From IMG/VR virus record IMGVR_UViG_3300045988_102840, positions 1 to 61,582 of that record: a stretch of DNA of 61,582 nt. One strand, written 5' to 3'. The notes beneath the pieces are model-generated. The model did not search any database, had not been told where the DNA came from, and saw only the letters and a list, made by a program, of their open reading frames with translations. The stretch is from a virus. The translations under genes and the position numbers were made by a program. Positions 1 through 61,582 of this stretch are shown one piece after another; positions within the stretch are counted from its first letter, which is position 1; each line of letters begins with the position of its first letter.

Positions 1-30
1 TCGAACCCGCGACCCTCAGCTTGGGAAGCT
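1..30. repeat. attL core: left copy of the 30-nt direct repeat (displaced 3' fragment of tRNA-Gly)
   Basis: TCGAACCCGCGACCCTCAGCTTGGGAAGCT at 1-30 is identical to 61553-61582. The window edges hide its true extent. Confidence 0.85.
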
Positions 31-4933: not shown

Positions 4934-5146
4934 ATGGGAAGAACGAAATCTGTAGGAAAGGTAGAGCCGGTCAACAAACTATGGCTCTCCGCTAAGGAAG
5001 CAATGGCATACTTAGGATGCAGTGATAAACTGTTGGAAAAACTAAGGAACAATGCCGAAATATCATTTTCTAAATATAATAACCGTACCATTTGGTACGA
5101 CTTGAAAAGCATTGAAAGGTTTATAGAAAGAAACCGCGTTGTGTGA
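4934..5146 (+). CDS. excisionase-family / MerR-like HTH DNA-binding protein
   Basis: WLSAKEAMAYLGCSDKLLEKLRNN...ISFSK...IWYDLKSIERFIE fits the small Xis/AlpA-type HTH pattern (70 aa). Confidence 0.65.
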   Translation: MGRTKSVGKVEPVNKLWLSAKEAMAYLGCSDKLLEKLRNNAEISFSKYNNRTIWYDLKSIERFIERNRVV

Positions 5147-5153
5147 ACAACGC
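5136..5153 (+). other. hairpin GCGTTG-TGTGAA-CAACGC directly 5' of tRNA-like gene 1
   Basis: 6-bp stem with a UGUGAA loop. It overlaps the stop codon of 4934..5146. Confidence 0.5.
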
Positions 5154-5156
5154 TCC

Positions 5157-5266
5157 TTCCTCTTAGCTCAGCCAGGCAGAGCATCGCTATGGTTACTTGT
5201 TCGAAGGTTTAGTATCCGGTAATTTCCGGTTAGCGAAGGTCGCACGTTCGAGTCGTGCAGAGGGAG
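5157..5266 (+). tRNA. tRNA-like gene 1: canonical acceptor, D, anticodon-stem and T arms, but 43 nt where the 7-nt anticodon loop should be
   Basis: Acceptor 5157-5163/5259-5265. D arm GCTC/GAGC. Anticodon stem TCGCT/AGCGA (5184-5188/5232-5236). Variable loop AGGTC. T arm GCACG-TTCGAGT-CGTGC. No canonical anticodon could be assigned. Confidence 0.6.
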
Positions 5267-5269
5267 CAA

Positions 5270-5637
5270 AATACATAGTTCTTTGACGTATTGAATGTGA
5301 AATAAGGTTTAAGCATTTGATATTTAGACTTATTTCAATATAACCGAGGATTACGGATAGCGGAAACGCGGGGACTCCGTATAGGCTTGGTTATCGTGAT
5401 TGTCTCTTCGCACCGAAATGTCCTACGGTAGAGAGTATGCGGTTTGGGCGCCCGTATCGCAAGAGACAAAGGTCATAAAGACAACATAAGCGTCCGATAC
5501 AGTCTTAAATCGGTATAAAGTATGCGGTGGTAATGAAAGGCGCCCGTACACGCTTATTATATATACTCCCTTCCCGTCAAATTCGGGCACGCTGAAAAGC
5601 CAAACACGTATTGTTGCGTTGAAGGGAGCAATGCTTA
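5270..5637 (+). ncRNA. about 370-nt ORF-poor, helix-rich region (candidate structured RNA or long leader)
   Basis: Helices seen: GAAATAAG/CTTATTTC, a GCG-GAAA-CGC tetraloop hairpin, TGTCTCTT/AAGAGACA, a duplicated AGTATGCGGT..GGCGCCCGTA module, and CTCCCTTC/GAAGGGAG ending 6 nt before the ATG at 5638. Confidence 0.4.
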
Positions 5638-7013: not shown

Positions 7014-7085
7014 GCCCGTGAGGGTGAATAATTCATGATATATTTTAATATAAACAGTCCCGTCCACGTGCTGGTCGGGAAACAC

Positions 7086-7189
7086 TGCGACATGGTGGAA
7101 TGGTAGACGCAGCACTCTATGATAGGAATGTCAAACCTTAGATGTGTGGAGCTTGACAACTCGTCCCGGTTCGAGTCCGGGTGTCGCAA
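7086..7189 (+). tRNA. tRNA-like gene 2: class-II-like acceptor, D and T arms, but a 53-nt non-canonical middle
   Basis: Acceptor TGCGACA/TGTCGCA (7086-7092/7182-7188). U8. D arm GTG-GAATGGTAGA-CGC. T arm CCCGG-TTCGAGT-CCGGG. No 5+7+5 anticodon arm can be drawn in 7112-7164. Confidence 0.5.
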
Positions 7190-7224
7190 CATCTTCACTA
7201 CAGATGAAGTATTTGTTTAGTCGT

Positions 7225-7254
7225 AGCCGGGCGGTCTGTGAAGATAGTCCGGTT
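7225..7254 (+). other. hairpin with loop GGTCTGTGAAGATA, followed by a T-run
   Basis: Stem AGCCGGGC/GTCCGGTT (8 bp, 2 G-U). The 13-nt loop core is identical to the one at 11650-11662. Confidence 0.6.
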
Positions 7255-7282
7255 TTTCTTGAAACCAATTAATAACAATCAT

Positions 7283-7759
7283 ATGAAAACATTACAATTA
7301 AGTGAACAAAAAGCCCGTGAACTATATCGGAGCGGTTCAAAAGAATTAAAAACAGTATTGGAAGAATCTTTTGGAAAGGATTTCTTTTCACAAGACGTTA
7401 CAGAAAGAGTGAAAACCTACCTTGATGCTTGCCACGAGTTGGGAAGGGAACCACTCGATGAGAAAAAGCTATTGGAGTTAGGCTTGACGGAACACGATAT
7501 TGCTTATCAAAAGCTGGCTATCGTTACGGAAGCTCTAAATGAAGGTCAGAAACTTAATGTGTGCGATGCTAACGTGAAACGCTGGTATCCGTGGTTCAAG
7601 CCTAATGGGTCTCCTTCCTCTTTCGCTTTCCACGGTTCGCATTGCGGTCTTGCGTGTGCGTTTGCGGGTAGCGGGTCTCGCCTTTGTTTGAAAAGCGAAA
7701 AGCTTTCCAATTATTGCGGGAAACAATTCATTGATTTGTGGAAACAATTTATTCTATAA
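7283..7759 (+). CDS. hypothetical protein, paralog A (C-terminal SPSSFAF...AGSGSRLC motif)
   Basis: ORF track gives 7238..7759. I moved the start to Met16 (7283), downstream of the hairpin. It is similar to 7778..8251 along its whole length. Confidence 0.65.
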   Translation: MKTLQLSEQKARELYRSGSKELKTVLEESFGKDFFSQDVTERVKTYLDACHELGREPLDEKKLLELGLTEHDIAYQKLAIVTEALNEGQKLNVCDANVKRWYPWFKPNGSPSSFAFHGSHCGLACAFAGSGSRLCLKSEKLSNYCGKQFIDLWKQFIL

Positions 7760-7777
7760 CCCTATAAACTTACAATT

Positions 7778-8251
7778 ATGACTTTAAATGTAGATAAAAA
7801 GAACGCTTTAAAGGCTTGGAGAGAAGCGGACAATAAAGGAAAGCAGATGCTTGAAAATCTATACGGCAAAGAAATATTTGCCAATCAAAACGTAATGGAT
7901 AGAATCAAAACGTTTGAAGACGCAATGGAAGAAACAGGAAGAAAAGGTGTCCCTGATTTTTCAGATTTACCCAAAGACATGCGCAGGCATTTCATTGCGT
8001 TATATAAAATGGAAGTTATTACGGAAGCTCTGAATGAAGGCTGGAAAGCAGACTGGGATAACTCGGATGAGAACAAGTATTATCCCTATTTCATTATGTC
8101 TCCTTCCTCTTTCGCTTTCGACTTTTCGCATTACGCTTATGCGTTTGCGAATGCGGGTAGCGGGTCTCGCCTTTGTTATAAAACACGCGGACTTGCGGAA
8201 TATTCGGCAAAAAAATTTATTGACATTTGGAAAGACATCCAGATAGGATAA
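7778..8251 (+). CDS. hypothetical protein, paralog B of 7283..7759
   Basis: Shared blocks: ITEALNEGW/VTEALNEGQ, SPSSFAF, AGSGSRLC, FIDIWK/FIDLWK. Confidence 0.7.
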   Translation: MTLNVDKKNALKAWREADNKGKQMLENLYGKEIFANQNVMDRIKTFEDAMEETGRKGVPDFSDLPKDMRRHFIALYKMEVITEALNEGWKADWDNSDENKYYPYFIMSPSSFAFDFSHYAYAFANAGSGSRLCYKTRGLAEYSAKKFIDIWKDIQIG

Positions 8252-8299
8252 GCATACAAAGGTCGTCTGCCCTTGTCTCCTTCCTCTTAAAAATAAATT

Positions 8300-8863
8300 A
8301 TGGAACAAGAAATTTGGAAAGATATAATTGGATATGAAGGGATATATCAAATATCCAGTTTAGGTAGAGTAAAATCTGTGAGCAGATATGTAAACCATAT
8401 AAATGGAGTAAGACATGTTCATAGTAAAATTTTAAAGCCTAATAGTTGTTCTCTTTATTTAAATATTAGTCTTAGTAGAAAATGTGTAATGAATAGATTC
8501 ACTATACATAGGCTTGTAGCTAAAGCTTTTATTCCTAACCCTAATAATCTTCCACAAGTTAATCATAGAGACGGTAATAAATTTAATAATAAAGTAGAAA
8601 ATCTTGAATGGTGTTCTTCCTCTGATAATCAAAAACACGCATATAGAATTGGGTTAAAAAAAACTCCTAATTTAGGCAGATTCGGCAGTCTAAATCATTC
8701 ATCTAAAGTTATAATACAATATAGTTTAACAGGAGTGCCAATTCAAGAATACGGAAGCACAAGAGAGGCTTCCAGAGTTACTAAAATAAATCAAGGAACT
8801 ATAGCAGCATGCGCAAGAGGGGAAAGAGCATCAGCCGGTTCTTATAAATGGAGATATAAATAA
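8300..8863 (+). CDS. HNH homing endonuclease (NUMOD4-like N-terminus, HNH core, C-terminal DNA-binding module)
   Basis: EIWKDIIGYEGIYQISSLGRVKS (NUMOD4-type) and HRLVAKAFIPNPNNLPQVNHRDGNKFNNKVENLEW (HNH). The coding sequence is visibly AT-rich. Confidence 0.85.
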   Translation: MEQEIWKDIIGYEGIYQISSLGRVKSVSRYVNHINGVRHVHSKILKPNSCSLYLNISLSRKCVMNRFTIHRLVAKAFIPNPNNLPQVNHRDGNKFNNKVENLEWCSSSDNQKHAYRIGLKKTPNLGRFGSLNHSSKVIIQYSLTGVPIQEYGSTREASRVTKINQGTIAACARGERASAGSYKWRYK

Positions 8864-11515: not shown

Positions 11516-11641
11516 TTAACCGAAAGCCCTCTGCTCACACAGAAGTCCCGTGAAAGGTTCGGGTTAAGTGATTTAATTTCAGCTAACAGTTAACTATCCC
11601 GGTGTGGCTTGACCGCCTATCCGGGAACTATTTGTTAACCT

Positions 11642-11671
11642 GCCTGTCCGGTCTGTGAAGATTGGGCGGGC
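11642..11671 (+). other. hairpin with loop GGTCTGTGAAGATT, second copy of the motif
   Basis: Stem GCCTGTCC/GGGCGGGC (8 bp, 2 G-U). The stem sequence differs from 7225-7254 but pairing is kept. It ends 6 nt before tRNA-like frame 3. Confidence 0.6.
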
Positions 11672-11677
11672 AAAAAT

Positions 11678-11887
11678 GGTGGTATGGCGGAACAACGAGA
11701 GACGCTAAAGTGAAGCTCTTATAGATAGGTTGGTAAGTCAATGTGTTACGGTTAGCCGTAAAAAAAAATTCAAACCACTGAGTTAATAACGGGTAATGCC
11801 GAATAGACCGCAATGTCAATGAATAAACTACTTGGTGAAAGTCCAAGAAAAACTCCTATCATGCAGGTGCAAGTCCTGCTACCACCT
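11678..11887 (+). ncRNA. tRNA-like frame 3: 7-bp acceptor, D-arm-like and T-arm-like helices enclosing about 155 nt
   Basis: GGTGGTA (11678-11684) pairs perfectly with TACCACC (11880-11886). TG-GCG...CGC D-arm mimic. GCAGG-TGCAAGT-CCTGC hairpin abuts the 3' acceptor strand. AATGTCAA is shared with frame 2. Confidence 0.35.
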
Positions 11888-28938: not shown

Positions 28939-29361
28939 CTACTTGCTCTTTTGAGCGGTTGCTTCTGCTGTCGGAGTCGGTGTTGATGCGGTTGTCGGAC
29001 GATACCCACCGTTAACAAGGAACAGTTCGTTGGTGTACTTGTTATAGTGAATTTCGTAGATACCCGTTCCGGCAAGGTTGCCGACAGTCACCGGCTCATT
29101 GTTGTAAGCCAGCAACGGTCTTGTATCCCCGTTAGTCCCTATCAGTATCGGGAGTGTAGCAGTCGTACCGGCAGGTATTGCCTGGCGGAGACTGACATAG
29201 AAACCGCCTACATAGCTTCTGTTACGGAACGCATGGTTAGGAAGTTCCAAAGTCACGTTCTCCGTGCCGACCGTTACGGCTACCGTAGGAAGGGTATTGA
29301 AATTAGCCCTTCCAATAGTAGGGAACAAGAAAGGAAATCCTGTAAAAAAGTTAGGCCACAT
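28939..29361 (-). CDS. hypothetical beta-rich protein (140 aa, Thr/Pro-rich tail)
   Basis: ORF track. Confidence 0.6.
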   Translation of the reverse strand: MWPNFFTGFPFLFPTIGRANFNTLPTVAVTVGTENVTLELPNHAFRNRSYVGGFYVSLRQAIPAGTTATLPILIGTNGDTRPLLAYNNEPVTVGNLAGTGIYEIHYNKYTNELFLVNGGYRPTTASTPTPTAEATAQKSK

Positions 29362-29384
29362 AATTACCCCCTTTCTTACCGGAA

Positions 29385-30368
29385 TTAACCCCAGTAGTTG
29401 TTACAACCACAACCGCCACGTCCATACATTGCATCACCGGCGTAAGCACCGAAAGCCGCAGCACGGAAACAGTCTGTGTTGATGGCTTGAATATTAGGGT
29501 AAACAACCGGAACGGTGTTAGGCATCTTGCATTTTATTCCATCGACATCGGACTGCAATGCCTGCAAGCCTGCTGCCAAAGGAGCAATCTGTTGTCCTAC
29601 TGAATTCAGGATAGTAGCATTCTGGTTACGTTGGGAGATTTCAGCAGTCAAAGTGGCTTTTTCTGCTGTAAGAGCCGCAATCTTGTCCTGCAATGCCTGG
29701 TTCTGCATAGCGTCCAACTTCGCAAGGATAGCATTGGTATTGGCGGTCGCACCGTCACGCAATGAAAGAGCATTCTGATTGGCCGTGTTGACAAGCGCGT
29801 TGGTCTGATTGCACATCGCAAGCTGGTTCTCATAGCCCATTGTGGTAATGGCGTTCTGAGTCTTGCAGCAGCAATCTGCAATCTGAGTAAGAACAGCCTG
29901 ATTTCCGGACTGGAATGCGTTGATGATTTGCTGGCTTGACATGCCCACCTGATTTCCTACATTGGCGATAAGTCCCTGGATGTTGCACAGGGCGCTCTGT
30001 AACTGTTGGGTAGAGCAGTTCAAAGAAGAAGCAAGCTGGTTGATGGCATTGCCATTGCCCTGAATGGCTGACATCAGGTATTCACGACCGACATCACCGT
30101 TAAGCTCGGCAGGCAGACCGCCACCATTGCCAAAGCGGTTGCCAAAGCCGTTGCCGCCCCAACAGAACCACAAAAGGATAATCCAGATGAACCACCACGA
30201 GCCGCCCCATTGGTCTTGGCTGCCACGTCCCTGGTTCAGTAAAGCGAGAAGTCCGGGGTCTACACCCTTGCTTCCCATCAAGTTGGGCAACATAGCCATG
30301 ATGTCGAATTTGCTTCCGCCACCATTTCCGTTGTTCCCGTCTTGATTGAAGACATACGTTCTTTCCAT
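29385..30368 (-). CDS. Asn/Gln/Gly-rich membrane protein with Trp-rich TM helix and Cys-rich C-terminus (327 aa)
   Basis: Contains GGSWWFIWIILLWFCWGGNGFGNRFGNGGG, long N/Q/A-rich coiled-coil-like repeats, and ends ...YGRGGCGCNNYWG. Confidence 0.6.
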   Translation of the reverse strand: MERTYVFNQDGNNGNGGGSKFDIMAMLPNLMGSKGVDPGLLALLNQGRGSQDQWGGSWWFIWIILLWFCWGGNGFGNRFGNGGGLPAELNGDVGREYLMSAIQGNGNAINQLASSLNCSTQQLQSALCNIQGLIANVGNQVGMSSQQIINAFQSGNQAVLTQIADCCCKTQNAITTMGYENQLAMCNQTNALVNTANQNALSLRDGATANTNAILAKLDAMQNQALQDKIAALTAEKATLTAEISQRNQNATILNSVGQQIAPLAAGLQALQSDVDGIKCKMPNTVPVVYPNIQAINTDCFRAAAFGAYAGDAMYGRGGCGCNNYWG

Positions 30369-48736: not shown

Positions 48737-48927
48737 TATCTTTGCAGTGTTCAAATTATCGCGGTGCAAAGCCGCAAACATAGCGGCATTTTTTGTGCCC
48801 ATACATAAAGTAGTCTTTAAAATATAAAGATATAACTGCGCCGTGTCGTGGAGTAGAAATACCCACGGAGTTTGCGATAAACTTGAACAACACGTAGCGC
48901 AGTTTTTTTATTGTTCAAATTATCGTT
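48737..48927 (+). promoter_or_regulatory. leader B: TAtcTTTG box plus X / X' / X2 three-part leader with a T7 run
   Basis: X is TGTTCAAATTATCG (48748-48761). X' is GCGATAAACTTGAAC (48874-48888). X2 is an exact 14-nt repeat of X at 48912-48925, 2 nt before the ATG. ACTGCGC/GCGCAGT helix at 48835-48841/48897-48903 is followed by TTTTTTT. Confidence 0.55.
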
Positions 48928-49569
48928 ATGGAAGAATTAAAACTATTCCAATCGCCTATTTTCGGGCAAGTACGTACCGTGGTAATAAACGGTCAAGTAA
49001 TGTTTGCTGCAACAGATGTTGCAAAATGCTTAGGATATGCGAATCCACGTGATGCGATTTCAAAACATTGTAAATCAGACGGGGTCGCGTTTTGCGACGG
49101 GGTGGTTAAAACTGGTCAGAGGAAAGACGGTACTATCTATGAACAAACAGGAGAAATCAAAATAATCACAAAAGGTAACTTAATCCGTTTAGTTGCCAAT
49201 TCAGAACTTCCGCAAGCTGAAGAAGTCGAAAGTTGGATTTTCGATGAAGTTATTCCTACCGTATTAGAAACAGGCGGCTACATTGCCACCAAGCAGGACG
49301 ACACCCCCGAAGAAATCATGGCACGTGCTCTAACCATCGCACAAGCTACAAAAAAATATCTGTTTTTGTTTGGTGATTTATATAATTGTTGTACATTTGC
49401 AGTGCGACAGTTTTATTATCATATTCGGATTGGGGATTTTTTATGCCCGATATTGAAGTATTGCTTAAAATATAAGCAGAGGTTTCTCCGTACATATTCG
49501 CCCCAAAGCCGATATGGAACTGTCGCAAGTTGGAGAAATTCTCTGCTTTCTTTATTTATTAACTTTTAA
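48928..49569 (+). CDS. Bro-N domain protein, apparently truncated (C-terminal 70+ aa read through a promoter and leader)
   Basis: Bro-N blocks FGQVRTVVINGQVMFAATDVAKCLGYANPRDAI...EVESWIFDEVIPTV. After ..ALTIAQAT (about nt 49345) the sequence becomes non-protein-like. Confidence 0.55.
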   Translation: MEELKLFQSPIFGQVRTVVINGQVMFAATDVAKCLGYANPRDAISKHCKSDGVAFCDGVVKTGQRKDGTIYEQTGEIKIITKGNLIRLVANSELPQAEEVESWIFDEVIPTVLETGGYIATKQDDTPEEIMARALTIAQATKKYLFLFGDLYNCCTFAVRQFYYHIRIGDFLCPILKYCLKYKQRFLRTYSPQSRYGTVASWRNSLLSLFINF

Positions 49570-49580: not shown

Positions 49581-50501
49581 ATGCGACAGTTGAATGAAAA
49601 TTACTCAAACAGCAATAGCGTTGCTGTGTTAGGTACGGCAAGCCCTTCCGACATGGGGCAAATCTTTTCTTATAATGGGAATAGTGTAAGAATGCGCAAA
49701 ATGAATGGGTATATTCTTGTGTGCCTTACAGACTTTGCAAAACCTTTTCCTGACAAGAATCTTTCTCACATTGTAAACTCAAAGGAGTTAAGCGATTATG
49801 TAGCACGAATGAGTGAAATACAAAATTGTAGTTCACTTGATTTACTGCAAGTTACAAAAGGGAATCATTCAGATGGAAGAGAACAAGGTACATGGGCACA
49901 TCATCGTGTTGCTATCCGTGTCGCTCAAAAATTATCCACTGATTTTGCTATATGGGTAGATGATAAAATAGAGGAGTTATTAACTACTGGAAGCGCATCA
50001 CTCCAACCTCAACTCCCAAATTTTAATAATCCTGCCGAAGCCGCCCGTGCATGGGCAGACCAATACGAGAAAAATCAAGCTCTTGCATTAGAAGTCCAAC
50101 AGCAACAGGAAACTATCGAACTCCAACAGAAAGAGCTTACACAATCTGCACCAAAAGTCAGTTACTACGACAACCACTTACAGAGTGTGAATACGCAGAC
50201 GAGCACACAAGCCGCCAAGCAGATAGGAATGGATGCTGAAAAGCTGCACAAGAAGCTGAAAGAAATCGGAATCATTTACCGGCAAAGCGGGCAGTGGATA
50301 TTACATGCACCTTATTCTACATGGGGGATGCACTCAACTCGTACACAGACGTACACACGTTCGGACGGTTCGACAGGAACAAGTGTATATACGGTATGGA
50401 CTACCAAAGGTGTGCGTTTCATTATTGCTCTATATGAAAATGATTGGGACGTGAAGAAAGCCATTAAGCAGATAAAAGGAGAATTAGAACCCGCTGCGTA
50501 A
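49581..50501 (+). CDS. KilA-N domain plus KilAC antirepressor domain protein
   Basis: GTWAHHRVAIRVAQKLSTDFAIWV is KilA-N. The linker SLQPQLPNFNNPAEAARAWADQYEKNQ is nearly identical to that of 24706..25596. KVSYYDNHLQS...AKQIGMDAEKLHKKLKEIGII is KilAC. Confidence 0.75.
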   Translation: MRQLNENYSNSNSVAVLGTASPSDMGQIFSYNGNSVRMRKMNGYILVCLTDFAKPFPDKNLSHIVNSKELSDYVARMSEIQNCSSLDLLQVTKGNHSDGREQGTWAHHRVAIRVAQKLSTDFAIWVDDKIEELLTTGSASLQPQLPNFNNPAEAARAWADQYEKNQALALEVQQQQETIELQQKELTQSAPKVSYYDNHLQSVNTQTSTQAAKQIGMDAEKLHKKLKEIGIIYRQSGQWILHAPYSTWGMHSTRTQTYTRSDGSTGTSVYTVWTTKGVRFIIALYENDWDVKKAIKQIKGELEPAA

Positions 50502-60171: not shown

Positions 60172-61377
60172 TTACTTCTTAAAAACATTTACATAATCGA
60201 TAACTTTCCGATTAGCTTTATCTACTTTTCGCATGTCAAAATGGATATAGATGTCAGTCGTTGTGCTGTTCGCCCAACTATGCCCAAGCGCGTGGGCGAT
60301 TACCTCTTTGGGGACATCGAGCTCTGCCGCTACCGTGGCCCATGTGTGTCTTGCCCAATATGAAGACAAATCAGGGAATAAAGGATTTCTACTCTTTTTC
60401 CCTCCCAATCCCTTCCTTTCTGTCTCTCCAATCTGTTTTAACCCTATTCCCATACGATGTAGGAAATCCTTGTAATTTCCGTAGTCATCCATTATATTAA
60501 GAAGATAATCCTTCCCTTTGTATTTCTCAATTATAGCCTGCGCTTCCGGTTCTACTTTAATACTGTATAATTTCCCCGTCTTAGCTCTTTTATATTCAAA
60601 ACGACCATTTACCAATGCAGAATGTTTTGCGTTAAACAAATCGGCTGCATTTACTCCTATGAGATAGAACATGAGCATGAACATATCCCTATATCTAATC
60701 TGGTATTCCTCACATGGATAATCTCTCAATAACCTAAGTTGTTCTGCTGTAAGGCTGCGTTTTCGGGTTTCCTCTTTCTTTATTGAAAACCTTCTGAATG
60801 GATACAATGTTGTGTACTCCTCATCAATGGCGTAGTTGAATACACTACGTATGTTCCGTAAATGAATAGCGTAGGCATTAACCTTCATCGTCTTTGCCAT
60901 CCACGCTTCAAAGTTTTCCAGCCACGACTTATCCATGCTCTCAAAAGTACAATGACTATCGTATTCCTCAATCTTGTTTCTTGTGGTTGTATATATAGAC
61001 TTAGTCCCCTGATTGGTTTTCTTGGAAACGAATTCATCAAGATAATAGAGAAACGTCTTTTGATTTTCAACCTTGCTACTTATAGCGTCCTCTATCAACT
61101 TCTTCAAAGCTTTGTCTGTAGTTGATTTCAACTTTTCTTGTTGCTCTAAAGTAAATATTACTGTTTCCGCCTTGTTTATTATTCCACGGGCAACTATATT
61201 TCTCGGCTTGTAATTTTGTGCACGCACAGAATATTCGTTCCCATTCCATTCTTTTTCCGATGCACTTAGCTGCGTAGCTATCATTATTTGTTTGTTGTGG
61301 AATACATTCAACTTTATCGGATAAGTACCATCTTTTTTTTGCCTTCTTTTATCAAGGTAGAATTTAACCGTTGCCAT
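60172..61377 (-). CDS. int: tyrosine site-specific integrase
   Basis: 401 aa. Arm-binding-type N-terminus (MATVKFYLDKRRQKKDGTYPI) and C-terminal ..ARHTWATVAA...HALGHS...TDIYIHF catalytic blocks. It lies adjacent to attR. Confidence 0.9.
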   Translation of the reverse strand: MATVKFYLDKRRQKKDGTYPIKLNVFHNKQIMIATQLSASEKEWNGNEYSVRAQNYKPRNIVARGIINKAETVIFTLEQQEKLKSTTDKALKKLIEDAISSKVENQKTFLYYLDEFVSKKTNQGTKSIYTTTRNKIEEYDSHCTFESMDKSWLENFEAWMAKTMKVNAYAIHLRNIRSVFNYAIDEEYTTLYPFRRFSIKKEETRKRSLTAEQLRLLRDYPCEEYQIRYRDMFMLMFYLIGVNAADLFNAKHSALVNGRFEYKRAKTGKLYSIKVEPEAQAIIEKYKGKDYLLNIMDDYGNYKDFLHRMGIGLKQIGETERKGLGGKKSRNPLFPDLSSYWARHTWATVAAELDVPKEVIAHALGHSWANSTTTDIYIHFDMRKVDKANRKVIDYVNVFKK

Positions 61378-61537: not shown

Positions 61538-61582
61538 AGCGGAAAACGGGATTCGAACCCGCGACCCTCAGCTTGGGAAGCT
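61538..61582 (-). tRNA. tRNA-Gly (anticodon CCC), 3' portion only; the 5' part lies beyond the window
   Basis: The reverse complement reads AGC-TTCCCAA-GCTGA-GGGTC-GCGGG-TTCGAAT-CCCGT-TTTCCGC-T. This gives the anticodon loop with CCC, the T arm, the acceptor 3' strand and U73. Confidence 0.8.
61553..61582. repeat. attR core: right copy of the 30-nt direct repeat
   Basis: Identical to 1-30. Confidence 0.85.

What the first reader, a model, noticed from the sequence alone, without database searches (positions are those of the whole stretch)
5157..5266. tRNA-like gene 1: every arm canonical except a 43-nt anticodon loop
The following elements are textbook: a 7-bp acceptor stem, U8, a 4-bp D arm with a GG-containing loop, a 5-bp anticodon stem (TCGCT/AGCGA), a 5-nt variable loop, a T arm with TTCGAGT and discriminator G. 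However, 43 nt (5189-5231) separate the anticodon-stem strands instead of 7. This stretch includes the hairpin CCGG-TAATTT-CCGG at 5216-5229. That amounts to a 36-nt insertion, far shorter than bacterial group I tRNA introns. No splice choice I tried leaves a loop with U33 and a purine at 37. It may be a tRNA with an unusual mini-intron, a tRNA-derived ncRNA or a decayed tRNA.
Basis: seen in the sequence. Interest (0 to 1): 0.65.

Follow-up and report, generated by a model that had tools for sequence, protein, structure and literature searches.

The report
Non-decoding tRNA-like RNA in prophage
A widespread gut Bacteroides prophage carries a gene descended from an arginine tRNA that keeps the full tRNA shape but has a 36-43-base insertion where the anticodon loop should be, so it most likely serves as a folded RNA-processing/stability module rather than as a working tRNA.

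Summary
Window 5157-5266 is a cloverleaf with a 41-43-nt anticodon "loop". Default ARAGORN and Rfam miss it. ARAGORN in intron mode calls it tRNA-Arg(CCG) and gives no hits in 60 shuffles of the window.

It is not a decaying pseudogene. The insert is fixed in about 100 viral contigs, in isolate genomes and in three diverged lineages. The tRNA body has been kept through compensatory changes at 2:71, 31:39 and the tertiary 15:48 pair. No insert-free copy was found in metagenomes or viral contigs.

It descends from a tRNA-Arg but has lost A20, which all 13 ordinary tRNA-Arg genes compared here carry. Removing the insert gives a 6-bp anticodon stem in the window's own lineage. No group I core, bulge-helix-bulge motif or splicing enzyme was found.

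Two sibling elements lie in the same early operon (7086-7190 and 11678-11887), and related Leu-like scaffolds in other Bacteroides phages carry unrelated central domains. Each element in the window follows a stable hairpin by 3-6 nt.

Best reading: a tRNA-derived, non-decoding RNA cut out by RNase P and RNase Z, comparable to plant mitochondrial t-elements. A new kind of mini-intron is not excluded (about 0.1).

The parts
5136..5153 (+). Hairpin GCGUUGU-GUGA-ACAACGC overlapping the stop codon of the xis-like gene, ending 3 nt before the tRNA-like 5' end. It is the proposed protective 3' end of the upstream mRNA after RNase P cleavage.
   Evidence: -10.5 kcal/mol, z = -3.96. Its role is inferred.
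5157..5188 (+). 5' part of the tRNA body: acceptor strand TTCCTCT, U8, A9, D arm (GCTC-AGCCAGGCA-GAGC), A26, and anticodon-stem 5' strand TCGCT.
   Evidence: Pairs are kept across lineages. Position 20 is C, not the A of tRNA-Arg.
5189..5223 (+). Insert (A5189 plus ARAGORN's 34-nt 'intron'): motifs GGTTAC, GTTCG, GGTTTAG and the proximal CCGG.
   Evidence: It is present, 36-43 nt long, in lineages a-c. It diverges 26-35% between lineages, about the same as xis third codon positions. No covarying helix lies inside it.
5224..5230 (+). Heptamer TTCCGGT, the remnant of the anticodon loop (U33, CCG, G37). Its CCGG can pair with the proximal CCGG at 5216-5219.
   Evidence: Invariant in lineages a-c. 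Absent in lineage d.
5231..5266 (+). 3' part of the tRNA body: U5231 (pairs with A5189), anticodon-stem 3' strand AGCGA, variable loop AGGTC, T arm GCACG-TTCGAGT-CGTGC, acceptor strand AGAGGGA, discriminator G.
   Evidence: The T arm and 3' acceptor are identical to those of an ordinary tRNA-Arg(CCU) gene in metagenome contigs L261/L266.
5267..5269 (+). Trailer CAA. No CCA is encoded, so RNase Z cleavage followed by CCA addition would be needed.
   Evidence: The processing step is inferred.

Best explanation
Window 5157-5266 is a descendant of a phage-borne tRNA-Arg gene that no longer decodes. A 36-43-nt expansion sits between the 5' anticodon-stem strand and the old anticodon loop, and the ArgRS identity base A20 is gone. 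The acceptor, D and T arms, the anticodon stem and the tertiary core are still under selection. It is transcribed with the early (+ strand) operon, starting 10 nt after the stop codon of the xis-like gene. The proposed mechanism is as follows. The L-shaped fold is recognised by RNase P at 5156/5157 and by RNase Z after G5266. This cuts the polycistronic early RNA and leaves the upstream mRNA with a GNRA-capped hairpin at its 3' end. It also gives the downstream structured RNA and genes a new 5' end, and it releases a stable RNA of about 110 nt. The enlarged anticodon domain is tolerated and only loosely constrained, and the former anticodon may be base-paired (an unverified CCGG/CCGG hairpin). 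What is shown: the fold, its descent from tRNA-Arg, fixation of the insert, compensatory evolution, loss of A20, the operon position and the flanking hairpins. What is inferred: transcription, RNase P/Z cleavage, lack of aminoacylation, and the effect on flanking transcripts.
For: The cloverleaf is beyond chance. The insert is fixed in about 100 IMG/VR contigs, in isolate genomes and in metagenome contigs, across three lineages. No insert-free or short-insert copy exists in the metagenome or viral collections. On the alignment, 98.4% of cells are paired, with changes on both sides at 2:71 (U.G/U-A/C-G), 31:39 (U-A/C-G) and the tertiary Levitt pair 15:48 (G:C/A:U). Among type-a haplotypes, 35% of xis third codon positions vary but only 2 of 110 element columns do. 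The T arm and 3' acceptor are identical to an ordinary tRNA-Arg(CCU). All 13 ordinary tRNA-Arg genes compared have A20, whereas the four lineages of this element have C or U. Removing the insert gives a 6-bp anticodon stem in lineages a and b. Lineage d has lost the anticodon heptamer but keeps the scaffold, including A15:U48. The insert diverges about as fast as third codon positions. The sibling element 7086-7190 has a covariation-supported extended arm, A37 instead of G37 and a loop-loop pairing, so it does not decode either. Leu-like scaffolds carry unrelated central domains. Each of the three elements follows a stable hairpin by 3-6 nt. Plant mitochondrial t-elements give a documented precedent for non-canonical tRNA-like structures that serve as RNase P/Z signals (PMC1920247).
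Against: There are no expression or end-mapping data. The heptamer TTCCGGT (U33, CCG, G37) is invariant in lineages a-c and sits exactly where a spliced tRNA-Arg(CCG) would need it, and lineage c would be fully canonical after removal. A pure processing signal would not need this, nor the conserved insert motifs. The low diversity within type a could reflect recent spread of one block rather than purifying selection. Only 3-4 independent lineages are available, so covariation rests on few events. The A20 argument assumes that Bacteroides ArgRS behaves like the studied bacterial enzymes (textbook knowledge, not tested here).
Confidence: 0.5

Rival explanations
1. The element is a tRNA-scaffolded effector RNA. 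The tRNA body only provides processing and stability, and the inserted domain is the functional part: a protein-binding site, a decoy for a tRNA-targeting host factor, or a regulator.
For: Motifs GGTTAYT, GTTCG, GTTTAG, TCCGGT and TTCCGGT persist in lineages a-c. The insert length is kept at 36-43 nt. In sibling element #2 the central domain ATAGGAAT[G/A]TCAA[A/C]CCTTAGATG is nearly invariant across four different acceptor stems. Scaffolds with exchangeable central domains look like cassettes.
Against: For this element the insert diverges 26-35% between lineages, about the same as xis third codon positions. No helix inside it is supported. Lineage d has lost half of it. No complementary target beyond chance exists in the phage. 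An apparent match to the 16S rRNA 3' region is broken by natural polymorphisms.
Confidence: 0.2
2. It is a working tRNA-Arg(CCG) gene with a new kind of short intron lying between positions 31 and 32. The intron would be removed by an unknown endonuclease and ligase, or by some other route, to give a decoding tRNA.
For: Removing the insert gives sequences that default ARAGORN calls tRNA-Arg(CCG) in lineages a, b and c. Lineage c is canonical. The heptamer has U33 and G37, as expected for a CCG anticodon, and is invariant. The scaffold descends from tRNA-Arg. The exon-like parts are conserved with compensation while the insert evolves near the third-codon rate. Element #2 has the same layout (CTTAGAT before the 3' strand).
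Against: 34-43 nt is far too short for a group I core, and Rfam finds none. There is no conserved bulge-helix-bulge motif (sequence inspection of lineages a-c). No RNA ligase or splicing endonuclease turned up among the 45 window proteins scanned. A20 is missing. The spliced form has a 6-bp anticodon stem in lineages a and b. Lineage c has a U10.U25 mismatch. Lineage d lacks the heptamer. CGG is a rare codon in the phage (8.8% of Arg codons). In #2, covariation does not distinguish the unspliced arm from a spliced stem, every spliced version is out of canonical register, and position 37 is A.
Confidence: 0.12
3. It is a dead tRNA gene: slippage duplicated part of the anticodon loop and 3' stem, and the copy persists only by hitch-hiking in a successful phage.
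For: The insert resembles degenerate tandem copies of TTCCGGTTAGCG (sequence inspection). The insert evolves at roughly the third-codon rate. Standard tools do not call it a tRNA.
Against: Three lineages that all carry the insert have kept every stem, with compensatory changes that include a tertiary pair. A dead gene would accumulate stem-breaking changes at the 14-27% divergence seen in the scaffold. No deletion to an insert-free form or loss of the element was seen among contigs that carry this scaffold; loss of the whole element could not have been detected by these searches.
Confidence: 0.08
4. It is a DNA-level site, for example binding sites for the adjacent HTH/xis-like protein or an attachment site, and only looks like a tRNA.
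For: It has direct TTCCGG repeats and the palindromes TTCGAA and CCGG, and it lies next to an HTH_17 gene.
Against: The pattern of change is RNA-like: G.U intermediates, compensatory pairs and the Levitt pair. The repeat spacing varies (6 to 10 nt). The prophage's own att site is elsewhere (window 1-30 = 61553-61582).
Confidence: 0.03

Closest known systems
Plant mitochondrial t-elements (non-canonical tRNA-like structures used as RNase P/RNase Z signals for mRNA ends; PMC1920247)
   Same: Both are tRNA-derived cloverleaves that keep the acceptor and T arms but are not decoders. Both lie between genes or at mRNA ends, in the same orientation as the genes. Here the element starts 10 nt after a stop codon and follows a stable hairpin.
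   Different: t-elements are organellar and their ends have been mapped experimentally, whereas nothing is mapped here. This element keeps all four arms and the tertiary core and differs only by a large, partly conserved expansion of the anticodon loop.
Ordinary phage-encoded tRNA genes, such as the tRNA-Arg(CCT) at the same site in relatives L076-L079
   Same: Same genomic position directly after the xis-like gene, same tRNA-Arg ancestry, and a nearly identical D arm in lineage b (AACGGTTA against AACGGATA).
   Different: The anticodon loop is 41-43 nt instead of 7 nt, A20 is replaced, pair 1:72 is U-A, and default ARAGORN and Rfam do not detect it.
Intron-containing tRNAs: bacterial group I introns in tRNA-Leu(UAA) and tRNA-Arg(CCU), and archaeal/eukaryal bulge-helix-bulge introns (own knowledge)
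   Same: An insertion in the anticodon region. The anticodon can pair with the insert. Removing the insert restores a tRNA-like sequence.
   Different: There is no ribozyme core, since 34-43 nt compares with more than 200 nt. There is no BHB motif. The insert lies at position 31/32. No such splicing machinery is known in bacteria, and the spliced stem has 6 bp in two of three lineages.
tRNA-like RNAs released by tRNA-processing enzymes: mascRNA from MALAT1, the tRNA-like parts of MHV68 TMERs, and the RNase P-processed c4 RNA of phage P1 (own knowledge)
   Same: A tRNA-like fold is used to recruit RNase P or RNase Z, defining the ends of neighbouring RNAs and yielding a stable small RNA.
   Different: Those are eukaryotic or viral-eukaryotic, or, for c4, not a full cloverleaf. 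None has an intact tRNA core with an expanded anticodon loop.
YrlA bacterial Y-RNA tRNA mimics and tmRNA (own knowledge)
   Same: Non-decoding RNAs that keep a tRNA-like top half.
   Different: In YrlA the RNA ends lie in the Ro-binding stem. In tmRNA the D and anticodon arms are absent and an ORF is present. Neither Rfam nor ARAGORN matches these families.
Engineered 'tRNA scaffold' for expressing recombinant RNA (own knowledge)
   Same: A foreign domain replaces or extends the anticodon arm of an otherwise intact tRNA, which is then processed and stabilised by the cell.
   Different: That scaffold is man-made. Here the arrangement is natural and recurs in several phage loci with different central domains.

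Membership tests
Canonical decoding tRNA (bacterial/phage) | Cloverleaf with a 7-bp acceptor stem, D and T arms, and conserved tertiary pairs (U8-A14, G18G19/T-loop, 15:48) | tested here: met
   98.4% of cells are paired and 15:48 covaries G:C/A:U.
Canonical decoding tRNA (bacterial/phage) | 5-bp anticodon stem closing a 7-nt loop with U33 and a purine at 37 | tested here: not met
   The loop is 41-43 nt.
Canonical decoding tRNA (bacterial/phage) | Detected by default ARAGORN or reaches the Rfam RF00005 gathering score | tested here: not met
   No tRNA hit at this locus even at E<=10.
Canonical decoding tRNA (bacterial/phage) | Isoacceptor identity element for ArgRS (A20) | tested here: not met
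   C20 in lineages a, c and d, and U20 in b, whereas 13 of 13 ordinary tRNA-Arg genes have A20. A rare variant (L004) has A20.
Canonical decoding tRNA (bacterial/phage) | CCA end and aminoacylation | not testable with these tools
   The trailer is CAA, so CCA is not encoded. Charging needs an experiment.
tRNA with group I intron | Intron with a P1-P9 catalytic core (at least about 200 nt) and a match to the Rfam group I model | tested here: not met
   The insert is 34-43 nt. There are no Rfam hits.
tRNA with protein-spliced (BHB) intron | Bulge-helix-bulge (3-4-3) motif at the splice sites, conserved among relatives | tested here: not met
   Inspection of lineages a-c and their folds. The only candidate 4-bp helix, TTAC/GTAA in lineage a, is absent in b and c and lacks the second bulge.
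tRNA with protein-spliced (BHB) intron | Splicing endonuclease and RNA ligase available | tested here: inconclusive
   None was found among the 45 window proteins scanned with Pfam or PHROGs. Many proteins have no annotation, and the host was not examined.
tRNA with protein-spliced (BHB) intron | Removing the insert yields a canonical tRNA | tested here: inconclusive
   Lineage c gives a canonical 5-bp stem and 7-nt loop. Lineages a and b give a 6-bp stem.
t-element-like processing signal | Non-canonical tRNA-like fold that keeps the acceptor/T-arm minihelix | tested here: met
t-element-like processing signal | Lies between co-oriented genes or at mRNA ends | tested here: met
   It starts 10 nt after the stop codon of ORF 4934-5146 on the + strand, within a run of + strand early genes. 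A stable hairpin ends 3 nt upstream.
t-element-like processing signal | Transcript ends coincide with the element's ends, and RNase P/Z cleave it | not testable with these tools
   Needs RNA end mapping or in vitro cleavage.
YrlA / tmRNA tRNA mimics | Match to the family model, and an Ro60 partner gene (YrlA) or a tag ORF (tmRNA) | tested here: not met
   No Rfam or ARAGORN tmRNA hit. No TROVE/Ro60 domain in the scanned proteins.

The most novel reading that the evidence does not exclude
The insert is a genuine, very short tRNA intron of a type unknown in bacteria and their phages, lying between positions 31 and 32 with the anticodon paired to the intron. An unidentified host or phage activity would remove it to give a functional tRNA-Arg(CCG). 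The sibling element at 7086-7190 would then be a second example, tRNA-Leu(UAG).
Probability: 0.1. Interest if true: 0.9.

Novelty: new variant of a known kind. Interest (0 to 1): 0.58.

Why it matters
The element sits in a very common human-gut Bacteroides prophage family. A neighbouring protein occurs in 2,904 blocks of the assembly collection. The element is one of at least three tRNA-shaped RNAs with enlarged or replaced anticodon domains in the same early operon, and related scaffolds with unrelated central domains occur in LoVEphage and other Bacteroides phages.

If the processing model is right, these phages use former tRNA genes to punctuate and stabilise their early transcripts. That would be a bacterial-virus counterpart of mitochondrial tRNA punctuation and t-elements, and a natural version of the engineered tRNA scaffold, which could be useful for RNA expression in Bacteroides.

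There is also a practical annotation point. Default tools miss these genes, and intron-tolerant tools label them as intron-containing tRNAs. The LoVEphage GenBank record has a two-piece 'tRNA-His/Undet' feature. This can mislead tRNA counts and codon-usage arguments.

If the insert is instead spliced, it would be a new class of bacterial tRNA intron.

Tried and rejected
1. Antisense regulator of a phage transcript. The longest complementary matches of the inserts of #1 and #2 anywhere in the window are 10-11 nt, no better than shuffled inserts at 10-13 nt. An earlier duplex-energy scan timed out.
2. Pairing with the 16S rRNA 3' region. GGTTAC-TTGTT resembles the 1492R primer and TTCCGGT is complementary to ACCGGAA of helix 45, both judged from a 16S sequence recalled from memory. 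I rejected this because the two matches are in the wrong order for a continuous duplex and are short enough to arise by chance. Natural variants (GATTAC, TTATT) would also break pairs with invariant rRNA bases.
3. Known RNA families. Rfam at gathering and at E<=10 gave nothing at this locus.
4. Group I or BHB intron. No core and no motif were found.
5. Insert-free alleles. There were none in metagenome contigs, and the three viral hits were unrelated chance matches.
6. Conserved helices inside the insert. None was found by RNAalifold or by a column-pair scan. The single-sequence folds of lineages a, b and c disagree.
7. Codon-supply argument. CGG is 8.8% of Arg codons and CTA 6.7% of Leu codons in the phage, so there is no enrichment.
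8. Phage-encoded RNA ligase, endonuclease or Ro60. None was found.
9. The phage's own att site. That is at the window ends, in a tRNA 3' half.
10. Genome-representative scan with the xis-like protein. It gave one distant locus only, without this element.
11. Literature searches for a described equivalent. No description of this element class was found.

Full report
**Setting.** The window is a Bacteroides prophage. Its first 30 bases repeat at 61553-61582 and form part of the 3' half of a tRNA gene on the minus strand, with loop TTCCCAA, which by inspection is tRNA-Gly(CCC). A tyrosine integrase lies next to it at 60172-61377. The left arm holds a repressor-like gene and a rightward early operon with an HTH_17/xis-like gene at 4934-5146, a band-7 gene, RecT, YqaJ, RusA and others. 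The nearest named relative is LoVEphage, at about 73% identity over the band-7 gene only. No cultured phage in the collection matches the element.

- RNAfold gives the cloverleaf as the MFE, with one extra pair (A5189-U5231) and a 41-nt loop. The energy by itself is not exceptional (z = -1.2).
- Default ARAGORN and Rfam do not report it.
It also calls a second element at 7086-7190.
- Sixty dinucleotide shuffles of the window gave no such call.
ARAGORN reaches loop TTCCGGT only by sliding the stem, which amounts to a 6-bp anticodon stem.

**Relatives.** The xis-like protein and exact DNA patterns retrieved several hundred loci. The element occurs in four forms:
- Type a is the window's own form. 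It is found in about 100 viral contigs and in two isolate genomes, and has a 36-nt insert.
- Type b has a 40-nt insert.
- Type c has a 42-43-nt insert.
- Type d occurs in two contigs and has a shorter 29-nt loop that lacks the CCGG...TTCCGGT part.

Types a-c all end the insert with TTCCGGT directly before the 3' strand of the anticodon stem. A pattern allowing 0-30 nt between the stem strand and TTCCGGT found nothing in the metagenome collection. In viral contigs it found only three unrelated chance matches. More distant relatives (xis 64% identical) carry an ordinary tRNA-Arg(CCT) at the same place.

**Is it a decaying gene?** No.
- On the alignment of 14 distinct sequences, 98.4% of cells in the cloverleaf are paired. 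This compares with 38-51% when the partners are slid by one to three columns.
- Three pairs changed on both sides: 2:71 (U.G, U-A, C-G), 31:39 (U-A, C-G) and the tertiary Levitt pair 15:48 (G:C in a and c, A:U in b and d).
- All four lineages carry an enlarged loop, so the insertion predates their split and the tRNA fold has been maintained since.
- Within type a, 35% of xis third codon positions vary among haplotypes, but only 2 of 110 element columns do.
- Caveat: only a few independent lineages exist, and the low diversity within type a could also reflect recent spread of one block.

**Ancestry and loss of decoding features.**
- A metagenome scan for the T arm and acceptor found an ordinary tRNA-Arg(CCU) gene in a tRNA array (L261/L266). 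Its T arm and 3' acceptor strand are identical to those of type c, and the rest of its body is similar.
- All 13 ordinary tRNA-Arg genes seen here have A at position 20. The element has C (a, c, d) or U (b). Lineage b's D loop, AACGGTTA, differs from the neighbouring phages' real tRNA-Arg loop, AACGGATA, at exactly that base.
- A20 is the main ArgRS identity element in studied bacteria (established knowledge, not tested for Bacteroides).
- Removing the insert gives a default-ARAGORN tRNA-Arg(CCG) in a, b and c. Only c has a 5-bp anticodon stem, while a and b have 6 bp.
- Lineage c has U10.U25 in the D stem. Lineage d has no anticodon-like heptamer.
- CGG is a rare codon in the phage (8.8% of Arg codons).

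**The insert itself.**
- Between lineages it differs by 26-35% (substitutions alone about 20%). xis third codon positions differ by 24-39%, and the scaffold by 14-27%.
- It keeps the motifs GGTTAYT, GTTCG, GTTTAG, TCCGGT and TTCCGGT.
- No helix inside it is supported by covariation, and single-sequence folds differ between lineages.
- The two CCGG blocks can form a 4-bp hairpin. Alternatively the GG after the 5' stem strand can pair with C34-C35. In either case the former anticodon could be base-paired, but neither pairing is supported by covariation.
- There is no group I core, no bulge-helix-bulge motif, and no match to any Rfam family.
- None of the 45 window proteins scanned is an RNA ligase, splicing endonuclease or Ro60.
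- No complementary target beyond chance exists in the phage.

**Sibling elements.**
- *Element #2 (7086-7190)* is derived from a class II, Leu-like tRNA. Fifteen distinct variants include three other acceptor stems. They support an extended anticodon arm (GCAC-TCTA...TAGA-U-GTGY, then AGG/CCT), with 97% of cells paired and eight pairs changed on both sides. The apical loop TGTCAA can pair with the variable-arm loop TTGACA, and one G-C to A-U change occurs in two related variants (likely a single event). Position 37 is A, not the G expected for a CUN-reading tRNA. Its central domain is almost invariant.
- *Element #3 (11678-11887)* has a 7-bp acceptor stem, a Leu-like D arm, an atypical T loop and a central domain of about 150 nt.
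- *Exchangeable centres.* The same 5' and 3' scaffold ends occur with unrelated central domains. Examples are a 188-nt allele of #2, an allele of #3 with an unrelated, longer central domain, and 129-, 144- and 163-nt elements. The 163-nt one lies within the feature annotated as a two-piece tRNA in the LoVEphage record.
- *Flanking hairpins.* Each element in the window follows a stable hairpin by 3-6 nt: 5136-5153 (-10.5 kcal/mol, z = -4.0, GUGA loop), 7058-7081 (-12.2, z = -2.7) and 11641-11672 (-23.8, z = -6.9, GUGA loop).

**Interpretation.** The best-supported reading is a tRNA-Arg-derived RNA that keeps the tRNA shape but no longer decodes. The most likely mechanism is inferred rather than shown. 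RNase P and RNase Z would recognise the fold and cut the early polycistronic RNA at 5156/5157 and after 5266. The upstream mRNA would then end in a hairpin, the downstream structured RNA (5267-5637) and genes would get a new 5' end, and a stable RNA of about 110 nt would be released.

This parallels plant mitochondrial t-elements, non-canonical tRNA-like structures whose ends coincide with mRNA termini and which RNase P and RNase Z cleave (PMC1920247). It explains several things at once:
- why the acceptor, T and D arms and the tertiary core are conserved;
- why identity and anticodon features could be lost;
- why the central domain is free to expand or be exchanged.

It does not explain the invariant TTCCGGT heptamer or the conserved insert motifs. 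For that reason I keep two rivals open: an effector or decoy role for the insert, and a new kind of mini-intron.

**Verdict.** I rate it as a new variant of a known kind, of moderate-to-high interest because it is part of a recurrent, undescribed class in a very common gut phage group and can be tested directly by RNA end mapping.

Noticed in passing
window 7086-7190 (+): Second tRNA-like element, derived from a class II (Leu-like) tRNA with A73. It has an extended anticodon arm, and its apical loop TGTCAA is complementary to the variable-arm loop TTGACA. Covariation supports the structure (97% paired, 8 pairs changed on both sides). The central domain is nearly invariant across four different acceptor stems.
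   Followed up: yes
window 11678-11887 (+): Third tRNA-shaped element: acceptor GGTGGTA/TACCACC, a Leu-like D arm, the atypical T loop TGCAAGT, and a central domain of about 150 nt with GATAGG and AATGTCAA motifs like those of #2. Locus L168 has the same ends with an unrelated, longer centre.
   Followed up: partly
L238 7314-7475 (LoVEphage MW660583.1, annotated feature 29237-29439); L199 8882-9024; L202 8181-8308 (-); L016 4195-4381: Other Bacteroides phages carry Leu-like tRNA scaffolds (same T arm CCCGG-TTCGAG[T/C]-CCGGG) with unrelated central domains of 60-140 nt. GenBank annotates the LoVEphage one as a two-piece tRNA-His/Undet.
   Followed up: partly
window 5267-5637 (+): A 370-nt non-coding stretch between tRNA-like #1 and the next ORF. 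It is built of exchangeable modules: a leading hairpin, a ~215-nt core with two similar hairpins (GTATGCGG...CCCGTA), and a long stem (CTCCCTTC...GAAGGGAG) just before the start codon. Relatives show compensatory changes in the hairpins. There is no Rfam match.
   Followed up: partly
window 7058-7081 and 11597-11627 (+): Repeated hairpin TCCCG...CGGGAA upstream of tRNA-like #2 and #3 (3 matches in the window against 0.09 expected). A 35-nt stretch containing the 11597-11627 copy is 100% identical to a stretch of LoVEphage.
   Followed up: partly
window 7225-7254 and 11641-11672 (+): Two long GC-rich hairpins sharing GGTCTGTGAAGAT with a GUGA tetraloop. The first is followed by a U run (terminator-like) after #2. 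The second lies 6 nt before #3. Lineages b and c of #1 carry CCGGTCTGT inside their insert.
   Followed up: partly
window 48834-48906 (+): c4-2 antisense RNA (Rfam RF02944, 49.6 bits) directly upstream of a Bro-N gene (48928-49569) and a KilA-N/ANT antirepressor gene (49581-50501). The layout resembles the c4-icd-ant immunity region of phage P1.
   Followed up: partly
window 1-30 and 61553-61582; 61538-61582 (-); 60172-61377 (-): A 30-nt direct repeat at both window ends, lying in the 3' half of a tRNA gene (loop TTCCCAA, read by inspection as tRNA-Gly(CCC)) next to a tyrosine integrase. These are the prophage att sites.
   Followed up: partly
window 7238-8863 (+): Two paralogous ORFs (7238-7759 and 7778-8251, both phrog_11581), each ending with the same hairpin GCGGGTAGCGGGTCTCGC (7664-7681 and 8153-8170). 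They are followed by a NUMOD4 + HNH_3 homing-endonuclease-like gene (8300-8863).
   Followed up: no
L237 1623-1671; L237 3321-3425: An uncultured Bacteroides chromosome carries a DUF2693-FD RNA (Rfam, 68 bits). It also has a divergent copy of tRNA-like #2, lying upstream of its xis-like gene instead of after a band-7 gene.
   Followed up: partly
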